Virus genome (UHGV): UHGV-0106067
Source: a virus
Strand: one strand, 5' to 3'
Length of the DNA: 62,562 nt
The position numbers are program-made. Below are positions 39,001 through 42,000 of this stretch, piece after piece. Each line of letters opens with the position of its first letter. The stretch's first letter is position 1.

Positions 39001-42000
39001 TGCTTCACGGATACCATTTTTCGCGCCAGCAATTGCCAGGGCATTACGTAACCCCAGCGTATTACTGTTGGGATTATCAGGTCGGTTAACGCCATATCGT
39101 GCCATCTGGTTATCCTGCGCCATCTGCGCTGTACGGAGACTGGAAGTGGCAAGGCCGCCCACCCGGGCAAGCTGCGCATTCATCAGGCTGTTGTTCTCGC
39201 CAAGGTCAGCCAGCCTTGCCACGCGGGGCAAATATCTGGTTCGCCAGTCGTCGTATTGTTGGCGTGTCAGCGCTGCTGACGTCTGCCAGTCACCCTGTGG
39301 GCGGGCTGCTCCTGAATAACCAGCCCTTGCGAGAGTTTCGTATTTACCGTACTCCATAATCACAGTCTCCAGTTCTGAGCCTGATGCTGAATGGCATTAG
39401 CGCCGGTGCCTGGCGTTTTAGCGCCACCACCTCCGTTACCGCCAGCCTTATGCATCGCGTACGCACCTACAGCTCCCAGACCAGCGCCAACAAGAGAAGC
39501 TCGCCCCTGCTGTTTCGTAAACGCAGCCTGTGCGTCCGATTTAGCTTTTGCCAGACTGCTGTCTGCCAGCGAGTTAAAACTCTGTAACGCATCTGCCTTC
39601 TGACCGGAACCGAGAGCAGCAACATCCTGTAGCCCGGCAACATACTTATCTGCCTGCGATACCTGCCCCCGTGTGGTTGTGTCAATCTGCCCGGTTACCT
39701 GATCACTCTGGTTCGCATTCATTACCGCGTTAAAGCGACCACTGGACGGGTCAACACCGGACTGAGCAAGATTACCCGCCAGCTCCTTCCGTGCTTCGCC
39801 AAACTGTTTCTGATACCCCAGATTTGTGGTGCCAGCAATATTGTCGTACTGCTGCTCACTGTTAAGGTCATCGACCTTTTTCATGAAGTTATCTTCTGCC
39901 GGACGGAGAATATTTTTGTAATCCTGCCACCCTTTCCAGGCCACCTCTTCCTGTGCTATTTGCGCTGCTGTTGGTTTTACTTTGGTATCACCACCACCTT
40001 TACTTCCGCCCATAATGGCTCCTCAGATAACAAAAAACCCTGCCGGAGCAGGGTCAGAATGTGAATTGCAATGTGGGTTTACGCTCGATGATGAATACAG
40101 TGGCAGTCAGACTGCTATCCTGAACACCATGAAGCCATCCTCATCATCCGGCATTCGCTCAAAGCCCAGACGTTTTCCCAGCCAGATAAATCCTCGTCTT
40201 GCCGTATGAAATTCGGCCCAGCGTCCGCCAGCCAGGCGGGTTAATGTCTTCACCTCCGGCAGATAACGCTCAACACTCTTACTCCCCGTACACACGCCCA
40301 GTAACACCAGAACATAAGGGATACCATCGTCACTGAGCACAGAACGCAGCACCAGAAAACCATCCGGCGCTTCAAAGCAAAACGCCTGCTTTTTAAGGCA
40401 GGCGTCTTTAACTTCATTCATAAATTCAGGGTTGCGGGAATTTCTCACAACACGCTGCATATACCGGAGAATTCTGTCGTCCATTCTCTCACCTGAAACG
40501 GGTGCCATATCGGCTGAACCTCAGCAACCAGTTGACGGGGACTTTCGTCCCCGTCGCGGTTTTCCTACTGCTTACACTGTAAGAACGCCGCAAACTCCGC
40601 TCCCCACAAATTCAGCCGGAACTCACACAACGAGCCGTGTAACATCCAGATGGTGAAGATTACCGTCATACAAATTGTGACAGTGATGAGCGATTTTTGC
40701 GACATAGCGCTTGCCTCCTGAGTGGAGAGGCGCTAACCTTCTACTTGCTTAAGGTATGATGGTTAGGGCCTCGGGTTAAACAAAATGTTTGACTCGGGGC
40801 CTTTCCACATCAGGCCTTCAGGTTCTCCCTCCAGCCATCAGCCGAAAGGCACCCGCGCATAATCTACGATTTTTGCCCTGCACGGGCAACAAAAAACCCG
40901 CCATCACAGCGGGTTATGACATGTTGTCGGATACAGTTCAGAATTTCAGGCCAATACCTACAACAACCCCGCTCGTGCGCCAGTCACCAGATCCGGAGCT
41001 TTCATACGCGACATCCATAGCAACACTTTCATTCAGGTTAAATTGTGCACCAGCAGCCCATGCAAGTGCTGTTTTTTTCGTACTGTTGCTTTCAGAAAAT
41101 CCACCGGTACTGTTAATGTTGTCCTTAATTTTCAGGTCAGCGGTAACTTTAGCTACGCCCATACCAGCCATTGCATACACACTGAGGTATTCGTTAAACC
41201 GCCACGAAGGACCCGCTAACAGGCTCCAGTAATTCGCTCTGATATCTGTTCTTCCTGAAGCTGCCGGATTTTTAACCTCTCTGGATTCATCTCCTGGGTT
41301 AATATCAATAAATGCCTGCGCATTAGTCATAGAACGCGCCCATGTAAAAGATGTTATAACACCAATCTCATCCGTTATCTCATAACGATACCTGATGCTC
41401 ATCCCCTGAGGAGATTTGCCTTTGCCATCATGCCCCCGGACAGAAGCATCTGCATATTCGCCTGAATTGAAGTAGTGTCTGTTTGTAAAACGGTTAAAAG
41501 TATCAAGATTATAAAGACTTAAATCCTTAACAAAATTGTTCAGTCCAGAGAGCTGAAGATGAGCGTATCCGAAAGAAACTGTACTGTCACCTTGTGCTGC
41601 ACAGGCAGGGGCTGCTACAAAACTCATCACAAAAGTTGTGCACGCAAAAATAATTCTGGCATGTTTCATTTTTAGACTTTTCCTATAATAAAATAACCCC
41701 GTATTATCTAAGATGAATTTAGTTTTATTACTTAATATTCATACTGACAGGCATATCAGTCATATATTGATGAATTAATGACCAGCACTTTATCTATATA
41801 CGGCTTCCGAATATCCCATGTTGCACGACCGGAATAATGCTCACAGGAATATATTTTATTTCCTGTAGCCCCCGTTGATGTGGTGTAAATCGGTCGGTCA
41901 TAAGGTGTACGCTGCCAGTTATAATACCCAACCAGTGCAGGCATAATTGCACATGGATATCCGAGGTCTTTTTCAAATTTGATATCAACAGGTATTAACT

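What the first reader, a model, noticed from the sequence alone, without database searches (positions are those of the whole stretch)
40509..40937. Unannotated second Hok-family toxin gene (HokA-like, 46 aa) between lom and the tail-distal genes, with its SD sequestered in an inverted repeat
- The minus-strand ATG at 40705 with a perfect AGGAGG SD gives MSQKSLITVTICMTVIFTIWMLHGSLCEFRLNLWGAEFAAFLQCKQ.
- This matches the HokA/HokE pattern (IC.T, FT.WM, SLCE, AAFL.CK).
- The SD lies between the arms of tagcgcc/ggcgcta, as expected for hok mRNAs whose translation is blocked until 3' processing.
- It sits after the lom terminator (40889..40916) with its own upstream region.
- Two distinct hok-family loci in one phage genome is notable. 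Both are invisible to a 60-aa ORF cutoff.
Basis: seen in the sequence. Interest (0 to 1): 0.6.

Follow-up and report, generated by a model that had tools for sequence, protein, structure and literature searches.

The report
Second Hok toxin gene after lom
The small gene after lom is a genuine second Hok-type membrane toxin with the usual antisense-RNA control layout, but it is already annotated in RefSeq, catalogued and toxicity-tested, so it is an ordinary, correctly spotted feature.

Summary
The 46-aa ORF at 40565..40705 (minus strand) passes Pfam's Hok/Gef threshold. It is intact in all 55 distinct relatives examined and is under purifying selection (median dN/dS 0.2). It lies in a discrete ~390-nt module (40500..40889). 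The module has a hok-type promoter, a 5'/3' fold-back (tac/fbi), an SD-sequestering hairpin, and a conserved Sok-type antisense promoter using the same hexamers as the published sokW. The predicted mRNA fold has strong covariation support.

It is not new. NCBI's RefSeq annotation pipeline (PGAP) calls it "Hok/Gef family protein" (WP_000078907.1) in EDL933's 933W prophage, and relatives occur in 1750 of 5426 complete E. coli genomes. PHROGs places it in phrog_251. A 2026 preprint lists this exact peptide (72_1589) among the Hok homologues it tested, and it is not among the three named as non-toxic.

- The inverted repeat is 6 nt, not 7.
- The gene is not a HokA orthologue.
- It is "unannotated" only in phage GenBank records (933W, VT2-Sakai, PhiR12_3).

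Two points are mildly interesting. This subfamily has no conserved mok reading frame. Also, the Sp5 phage used for the hokW-sokW study carries this second locus, which that paper does not mention.

The parts
40895..40915 (-). lom intrinsic terminator (stem-loop; the T-run extends to about 40889)
   Evidence: Terminator scan; also the inverted repeat I14.
40884..40889 (-). Predicted hok promoter -35 (TTGCCC), directly abutting the lom terminator T-run
   Evidence: Read from the sequence. TTGCC(C/G) is kept in 44 of 55 distinct copies, including those in unrelated genomic contexts. Inferred; no transcript data.
40861..40866 (-). Predicted hok promoter -10 (TAGATT), 17-nt spacer, 6 nt before the predicted start site
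   Evidence: TAGATT or TAAATT in 46 of 55 copies. It aligns with TAGAAT of hokW. Inferred.
40500..40854 (-). Predicted full-length hok mRNA (~355 nt)
   Evidence: The 5' end corresponds to position 1 of Rfam RF01794. The 3' end is where family homology stops. MFE is -154.6 kcal/mol, z = -6.6. Covariation: 91.6% of cells paired against about 40% when partners are slid; 26 pairs with double-sided changes against 6-15.
40838..40854 (-). tac-like 5' element (GGGUGCC..UCGGCUGA)
   Evidence: Pairs with 40500-40517 in the MFE and as exact 8+8-nt complements (I9 and I10). Helix 1 is 98% paired and helix 2 is 89% paired across the family.
40500..40517 (-). fbi-like 3' fold-back element (UCAGCCGA..GGCACCC)
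   Evidence: Family homology ends immediately after GGCACCC.
40796..40808 (-). Internal box that pairs with the 5' end once the 3' end is removed (ucb-like)
   Evidence: Modelling of 3'-truncated RNAs. The helix is 99% paired across the family but nearly invariant, so there is no covariation signal.
40763..40810 (-). 15-codon leader ORF (MWKGPESNILFNPRP) with an SD-like GAAGG; it stops 57 nt before the hok ATG
   Evidence: The ATG is conserved in 48 of 49 copies, but ORF length (1-79 codons) and frame are not. Only 7 of 49 overlap hok.
40746..40808 (+). Predicted Sok-like antisense RNA (~63 nt): 5' tail plus an 18-bp hairpin followed by UUU
   Evidence: Fold -33 kcal/mol, z = -6.3. Same layout as sokW. 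The ends are inferred, not measured.
40711..40739 (+). Sok-type promoter: -35 TTGCCT (40711-40716), 17-nt spacer, -10 TAACCT (40734-40739); it overlaps the hok SD on the other strand
   Evidence: Same hexamers and spacing as sokW, whose -10 is the site mutated in the published 'pro-less' construct (primer YO-421). The geometry TTGnnn / 17-18 nt / TAACCT is kept in 47 of 49 copies. The generic promoter scan does not flag it.
40706..40734 (-).
   Evidence: MFE pairs. Helix 8 is 100% paired; helix 9 is 73% paired with 3 double-sided changes.
40714..40719 (-). hok Shine-Dalgarno AGGAGG
   Evidence: The GGAG core lies 8-10 nt from the ATG in all 49 copies.
40565..40705 (-). hok-family toxin CDS, 46 aa (MSQKSLITVTICMTVIFTIWMLHGSLCEFRLNLWGAEFAAFLQCKQ)
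   Evidence: Intact in 55 of 55 copies. Median dN/dS 0.2. Identical to WP_000078907.1 and to preprint entry 72_1589.
40741..40755 (-). Target of the Sok 5' tail; in the full-length fold it pairs with 40518-40531
   Evidence: Helix 6, with compensatory changes at three pairs (GC27/AU20, AU25/GC22, UA18/CG14). Coordinates.
40518..40531 (-). 3' segment that masks the Sok-tail target in the full-length mRNA
40534..40555 (-). 3' UTR stem-loop (GACGGGGAC GAAA GUCCCCGUC)
   Evidence: I4. Helix 18 is 100% paired, with 4 pairs changed on both sides.

Best explanation
This is a hok/sok-type type I toxin-antitoxin cassette, carried as a self-contained ~390-nt accessory gene (moron) between lom and the next late gene of a 933W/Sp5-like lambdoid phage. 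The minus strand makes a ~355-nt mRNA for a 46-aa inner-membrane toxin of the Hok/Gef family. In the full-length RNA the 5' end pairs with the extreme 3' end. The Sok-tail target is masked by a 3' segment, and the hok SD sits in a local hairpin. The RNA is therefore inert, as in plasmid R1 hok. Trimming the 3' end lets the 5' end re-pair with an internal box and exposes the leader region. A ~63-nt antisense RNA, made from a promoter that overlaps the hok SD on the plus strand, would pair with that leader and silence or destroy the mRNA. Shown here: family membership of the peptide, purifying selection on it, the conserved alternative RNA pairings, and the conserved antisense promoter geometry. 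Shown by others: toxicity of this exact peptide on over-expression. Inferred: transcript ends, 3' processing, Sok action, and the biological role. The likely roles are prophage addiction, or help with lysis on induction as reported for hokW. Unlike R1, there is no conserved mok frame, so coupling of hok translation to mok is not part of the conserved design.
For: Pfam HOK_GEF 33.2 bits against 22. phrog_251 at E 2.8e-24. RefSeq annotation as a Hok/Gef family protein at the same position in the 933W prophage, and relatives in 1750 of 5426 E. coli genomes. Intact ORF in 55 of 55 copies. Median dN/dS 0.2, with 8 synonymous and 0 non-synonymous differences against the 933W copy. Rfam hok/sok leader hit, 42.1 bits, E 6e-8. 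8+8-nt 5'/3' complementarity and MFE z = -6.6. Covariation support for the fold and conservation of the alternative fold. Modelled refolding on 3' trimming: the leader AUG goes from 3% to about 60% unpaired. Antisense promoter identical in hexamers and spacing to the experimentally defined sokW promoter and conserved across the family. Stable Sok-like hairpin. The exact peptide is in the table of tested sequences and is not among the three named as non-toxic. The module has sharp boundaries and occurs in unrelated contexts.
Against: No transcript, start-site or processing data exist for this locus. The Rfam score is below the gathering threshold. The generic sigma-70 scan does not call either promoter. 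The Sok-like terminator has only three U residues. No mok frame reaches the hok start in this copy, or in 42 of 49 relatives. The modelled hok SD stays 70-80% paired even after 3' trimming, so the activation step is not reproduced in silico. In the ciprofloxacin data set the flanking genes are listed as induced, but this gene does not appear.
Confidence: 0.79

Rival explanations
1. The toxin ORF is intact but the locus is regulation-dead. Like the chromosomal hok copies of E. coli K-12, it would no longer be translated or controlled by an antisense RNA, and would simply hitch-hike with the phage.
For: No mok frame coupled to hok. The SD stays sequestered in all modelled RNA forms. Rfam score below the gathering threshold. 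The gene is absent from the list of ciprofloxacin-induced genes although its neighbours are listed.
Against: Purifying selection on the peptide. No disrupted copy among 55. Promoter hexamers, fold-back elements and the antisense promoter are conserved across copies that are only 75-83% identical and sit in different genomic contexts. Compensatory base changes maintain the RNA helices. A dead locus would not keep all of these.
Confidence: 0.12
2. The gene acts mainly as a late-operon lysis accessory. It would be translated from the long antiterminated late transcript that runs through lom, and the antisense RNA would only keep it silent in the lysogen. The classical 3'-processing switch would then be irrelevant.
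For: The gene is co-oriented with the late genes on both sides, and these are induced 11-32-fold by ciprofloxacin in EDL933. The sister locus hokW is reported to be induced by mitomycin C and to speed Sp5 release. The gene has its own strong SD.
Against: The module keeps its own promoter and its exact tac/fbi ends in contexts that are not late operons, namely the end of a P2-like prophage and a urease island. This argues that the autonomous transcript is the selected unit.
Confidence: 0.08
3. It is a chance small ORF in an intergenic spacer.
For: None beyond its small size.
Against: Pfam E 4e-8, PHROGs E 2.8e-24, dN/dS 0.2, and conservation in Escherichia, Shigella, Salmonella and Citrobacter.
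Confidence: 0.01

Closest known systems
hokW-sokW of Sakai prophage 5 (Takada et al. 2021, PMC8621323); this is locus 1 of this window (hok ORF 6636..6791, Rfam sok 6786..6960)
   Same: Same phage type and same Pfam and PHROG family. Same promoter layout: TAGAAT/TAGATT -10, a GGGUGC 5' end, and a Sok promoter TTGCCT-17-TAACCT overlapping the hok SD. GCACCC fold-back at the 3' end.
   Different: 51 aa against 46 aa. Different Hok clusters: a peptide 44/51 identical to the window's HokW (35_712) sits in the preprint's HokD cluster 35, against cluster 72 here. hokW has a 17-codon leader ORF ending 3 nt before its ATG, and locus 2 lacks that segment. Antisense and target sequences share no more than 7 nt of non-cognate complementarity. 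hokW-sokW has been tested experimentally as a toxin-antitoxin pair; locus 2 has not.
hok/mok/sok (parB) of plasmid R1
   Same: Small Hok/Gef toxin. Long, highly structured mRNA with 5'/3' fold-back. Predicted refolding after 3' trimming. A cis-antisense RNA of about 60 nt made from a promoter inside the leader.
   Different: No conserved mok frame overlapping hok. hok has its own strong SD. The locus scores below Rfam's gathering threshold. The R1 features are stated from established literature, as summarised in the introduction of the preprint.
HokA of E. coli K-12 (NCBIfam NF007290)
   Same: Best-scoring named NCBIfam model. Shared C-terminal motif, SLCE...EFAAFL.CK.
   Different: 38.4 bits against the equivalog cut-off of 89. 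In the preprint HokA is cluster 93 and this peptide is cluster 72. It is therefore not an orthologue.
Hok cluster 72 of Escalera-Maurer et al. (bioRxiv 10.1101/2025.08.07.668861), entries 72_1589 and 72_1621
   Same: 72_1589 is the identical 46-aa peptide. 72_1621 is the main diverged subfamily seen here.
   Different: Nothing at the protein level. That study deliberately did not analyse mok, Sok or the mRNA structure, and these are worked out here for this locus.

Membership tests
Hok/Gef toxin family (Pfam PF01848) | Sequence match to the family model at or above the curated threshold | tested here: met
   33.2 bits against a gathering score of 22, E 4e-8, covering residues 8-44. phrog_251 'MokW-like host killing', E 2.8e-24.
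Hok/Gef toxin family (Pfam PF01848) | About 50 aa, with an N-terminal hydrophobic helix and a conserved (S)LCE cysteine motif in the C-terminal part | tested here: met
   46 aa. Residues 6-22 are hydrophobic. C27 in SLCE and C44 are invariant in 30 family members.
Hok/Gef toxin family (Pfam PF01848) | Toxic to E. coli when over-expressed | not testable with these tools
   From the literature: the identical peptide (72_1589, plasmid LRP157) is in the table of experimentally tested sequences. The text names only 19_179, 60_1482 and 69_1540 as non-toxic. Membrane depolarisation was not specifically shown.
[quoted passage not shown] | Match to the Rfam hok/sok leader model at the gathering score | tested here: not met
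   42.1 bits against 59. The hit is significant locally (E 6e-8) and spans the full model length, 1-157. Locus 1 scores 118.4 bits.
[quoted passage not shown] | Long-range pairing of the mRNA 5' end (tac) with the 3' end (fbi) | tested here: met
   8+8-nt exact complements. Present in the MFE and centroid structures. 98% and 89% paired across 49 relatives.
[quoted passage not shown] | Alternative fold of the 3'-processed mRNA, with the 5' end pairing to an internal box | tested here: met
   Predicted for RNAs ending at 40520 or further upstream. The helix is 99% paired in the family but invariant, so it is supported by conservation only.
[quoted passage not shown] | cis-encoded antisense RNA (Sok) with its own promoter inside the leader | tested here: inconclusive
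   Promoter hexamers and spacing are identical to the mutationally defined sokW promoter and conserved in the family. The RNA forms a stable hairpin. There is no expression evidence, the generic promoter scan is negative, and the terminator tail is only UUU.
[quoted passage not shown] | mok reading frame overlapping hok, to which hok translation is coupled | tested here: not met
   No ORF from the leader reaches within 15 nt of the hok ATG in this copy. The conserved leader ATG heads ORFs of 1-79 codons in all three frames, and only 7 of 49 overlap hok.
HokA (NCBIfam NF007290, equivalog) | Score at or above the equivalog cut-off | tested here: not met
   38.4 bits against 89.

The most novel reading that the evidence does not exclude
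Cluster-72 hok loci could be a mok-independent variant of hok/sok. In that case Sok would act by triggering mRNA decay or by blocking a short, non-overlapping leader ORF, rather than by blocking mok. In 933W/Sp5-type Stx phages this second cassette could also act redundantly with hokW-sokW in lysis timing or prophage stabilisation. The published single-locus deletion (a two-fold drop in Sp5 release) would then underestimate the contribution of Hok toxins to Stx-phage release.
Probability: 0.3. Interest if true: 0.4.

Novelty: already known. Interest (0 to 1): 0.2.

Why it matters
It matters mainly as an annotation fix. The reference GenBank records of 933W, VT2-Sakai and newer phages such as PhiR12_3 leave this toxin gene out, although RefSeq, PHROGs and a recent Hok survey all know it. 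There is also a practical point for Stx-phage biology. The only functional study of a Hok system in Sp5 deleted hokW-sokW alone, while the identical copy of this second cassette remained in the phage. A double deletion would be the fair test of what Hok toxins contribute to lysis and phage release. The lack of a conserved mok frame is a small but testable departure from the R1 paradigm.

Tried and rejected
1. Generic sigma-70 promoter scan of 40400-41000. It found neither the hok nor the Sok-type promoter, because their -10 hexamers match the consensus in only 3-4 of 6 positions. The promoter assignments therefore rest on homology to hokW-sokW and on conservation.

2. Rfam at gathering thresholds finds only locus 1. 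Locus 2 appears only in a permissive local scan.

3. Search for a mok frame. None is conserved. I considered the 15-codon leader ORF as a mok substitute, but its length and frame vary too much to call it a gene.

4. Thermodynamic test of 'the SD opens after 3' processing'.

5. Cross-species scan of GTDB genomes. It gave only 7 loci. Three are from implausible hosts (Xanthomonas, a Planococcaceae MAG, Vagococcus) and are probably contaminant contigs. I used them only as sequences.

6. Literature search for 'hok + 933W + lom' found nothing. The EDL933 RNA-seq/Ribo-seq paper lists only Rfam-threshold sok copies, so it has no data on this locus. The supplement of the ciprofloxacin paper lists the neighbours but not this gene.

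7. Cross-talk between the two Sok/hok pairs. Rejected: no more than 7 nt of perfect non-cognate complementarity.

8. Structure prediction and fold search were not used, since a 46-aa single helix would add nothing to the sequence evidence.

Full report
**What is there.** On the minus strand, an ATG at 40705 opens a 46-codon ORF that ends with TAG at 40567-40565. AGGAGG lies at 40719-40714, 8 nt upstream. The lom gene (40938..41669, Pfam Ail_Lom) ends with an intrinsic terminator at 40915-40895. The inverted repeat around the SD exists but is 6 nt long (TAGCGC/GCGCTA, 40735-40730 and 40710-40705), not 7.

**Is it a Hok toxin?** Yes.
- Pfam HOK_GEF scores 33.2 bits against a gathering score of 22 (E 4e-8).
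- PHROGs places it in phrog_251, 'MokW-like host killing' (E 2.8e-24).
- NCBIfam's closest model is HokA, but at 38.4 bits against a cut-off of 89. It is therefore a Hok-family protein and not a HokA orthologue.
- Across 55 distinct DNA copies, every one keeps an ATG-initiated ORF of 45-47 codons.
- Median dN/dS among 25 distinct coding sequences is 0.2. The window's copy differs from the 933W-type copy by 8 synonymous and 0 non-synonymous changes.
- C27 (in SLCE) and C44 are invariant in a 30-protein family alignment.

**Anatomy of the locus.** Copies that are only 75-83% identical, and that sit in other genomic contexts, align with the window from about 40889/40874 down to 40500. Homology stops immediately after GGCACCC. 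The other contexts include the end of a P2-like prophage beside serS and a urease island. The unit is therefore a discrete, mobile module of about 390 nt. From 5' to 3' on the minus strand it contains:
- a -35 TTGCCC (40889-40884) and a -10 TAGATT (40866-40861), both conserved;
- a 5' end, GGGUGCC, that corresponds to position 1 of Rfam's hok/sok leader model. That model matches 40854-40694 at 42.1 bits (E 6e-8 locally, below the gathering score of 59);
- a leader with a conserved ATG at 40810;
- the SD hairpin, the toxin ORF, and a 3' stem-loop (40555-40534);
- a 3' end, UCAGCCGA..GGCACCC (40517-40500), that is exactly complementary to the 5' end.

**The RNA fold.** The 355-nt RNA folds at -154.6 kcal/mol, z = -6.6 against shuffles, and the 5'/3' pairing is present in the minimum-energy and centroid structures. 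I projected this fold onto an alignment of 49 distinct relatives.
- 91.6% of cells are paired, against about 40% when partners are slid by 1-3 columns.
- 26 pairs carry double-sided changes, against 6-15 in the slid controls.
- The clearest compensatory changes are in the 3' stem-loop and in a long-range helix that joins 40755-40741 to 40531-40518. The first arm of that helix is the target of the antisense RNA's 5' tail. The second arm lies just upstream of the fold-back element.

**Modelled switch.** Removing about 35 nt or more from the 3' end makes the 5' end re-pair with 40808-40796. The leader AUG goes from 3% to about 60% unpaired. The alternative helix is conserved (99% paired) but invariant, so it carries no covariation signal. 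The hok SD itself stays 70-80% paired in all modelled forms, so the final activation step is not reproduced in silico.

**The antisense side.** On the plus strand, TTGCCT (40711-40716), a 17-nt spacer and TAACCT (40734-40739) reproduce the hexamers and spacing found at locus 1. The published sokW 'promoter-less' primer YO-421 changes exactly that -10. The geometry TTGnnn / 17-18 nt / TAACCT is kept in 47 of 49 relatives. The predicted ~63-nt RNA (40746-40808) forms an 18-bp hairpin (-33 kcal/mol, z = -6.3) followed by only UUU. There are no transcript data, so this part is inferred.

**Relation to the first locus.** Primers YO-357 and YO-369 of Takada et al. match the 51-aa ORF at 6636..6791. 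Locus 1 is therefore the published hokW-sokW, and it scores 118 bits on Rfam sok. The two loci share their layout but have diverged. The non-cognate antisense/target pairs share at most 7 nt of perfect complementarity, against 63 nt for the cognate pair, so cross-regulation is unlikely.

hokW has a 17-codon leader ORF that ends 3 nt before its ATG. Locus 2 lacks that segment, and no leader ORF reaches its hok start. Across the family, the conserved leader ATG heads ORFs of 1 to 79 codons in all three frames, and only 7 of 49 overlap hok. A mok frame is therefore not a conserved feature of this subfamily.

**Already known?** Yes.
- RefSeq's PGAP annotates this ORF as 'Hok/Gef family protein' (WP_000078907.1) in a prophage 100% identical to the window and in EDL933's 933W prophage.
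- Relatives of the module occur in 1750 of 5426 complete E. coli genomes, and the protein also occurs in Shigella and Salmonella, with related loci in E. albertii and Citrobacter.
- The preprint by Escalera-Maurer et al. lists the identical peptide as 72_1589 (cluster 72, high abundance) in its table of experimentally tested sequences. It names only three other entries as non-toxic.
- The same preprint reports that 3.5% of Hok-carrying phages encode two homologues.
- The gene is unannotated only in phage GenBank records. 933W (AF125520), VT2-Sakai (AP000422) and PhiR12_3 all leave a ~430-bp gap between lom and L0129, and that gap contains the identical toxin.

**Function.** I take the cassette to be a working hok/sok-type system (confidence about 0.8). 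Its role for the phage is not resolved. It is co-oriented with late genes that are induced 11-32-fold by ciprofloxacin in EDL933, although the gene itself is not in that table. The sister locus hokW is reported to be induced by mitomycin C and to speed Sp5 release. Prophage addiction, lysis assistance and exclusion of other phages all remain open.

**Verdict.** The finding is real and correctly interpreted, but ordinary and already catalogued. Two residual points are of interest. This subfamily lacks a conserved mok. And the Sp5 phage used in the hokW-sokW study carries this second cassette, which that paper does not mention.

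Noticed in passing
window 40484-40508 (minus strand): The downstream 133-aa gene (L0129 homologue) is annotated from the ATG at 40508. That ATG lies inside the hok module's fold-back element. The protein matches its PHROG family (phrog_610) only from residue 9 onward, to profile position 1, so the real start is probably the ATG at 40484, which is preceded by GGTGAGAGA.
   Followed up: partly
window 6795-6848 (minus strand): hokW (locus 1) has a 17-codon leader ORF (MTYKLRLASYVPKGKEK). 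Its SD and ATG lie in the region probed for sokW, and its stop codon is 3 nt before the hokW ATG. This would be a very short mok-like coupling ORF.
   Followed up: partly
window 2809-3025 (minus strand): Strong Rfam hit to the prophage-associated sRNA STnc100 (149 bits).
   Followed up: no
window 16002-16189 (plus strand): Adjacent Rfam hits to isrK (61 bits) and C4 antisense RNA (77 bits). This resembles the P1/P7-type c4/ant immunity RNA arrangement seen in Stx-type phages.
   Followed up: no
L006, L007, L009 (GTDB genome contigs): Contigs labelled Xanthomonas pisi, a Planococcaceae MAG and Vagococcus sp. carry this enterobacterial hok module at 76-100% protein identity. One is an 857-bp contig. 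These look like enterobacterial contamination of those assemblies.
   Followed up: no
L004 (E. coli JJ1886, 947550-947926) and L005 (E. coli 08-00022): The same module, about 76-82% identical, sits at the very end of a P2-like prophage next to serS and in a urease/transposase island. It therefore moves as an independent cassette between mobile elements.
   Followed up: partly
window, whole: No tRNA genes were found anywhere in the 62.5-kb window. I did not check for stx genes. The nearest phage record is PhiR12_3 from ECOR13.
   Followed up: no
L003 658-909 (EDL933 933W prophage, L0132 homologue; window counterpart is about 2 kb downstream of hok on the minus strand): RefSeq names the 83-aa late-region protein WP_000540391.1 'bacteriocin' in EDL933. 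The near-identical gene in another genome is called 'hypothetical protein'. The annotation is inconsistent.
   Followed up: no
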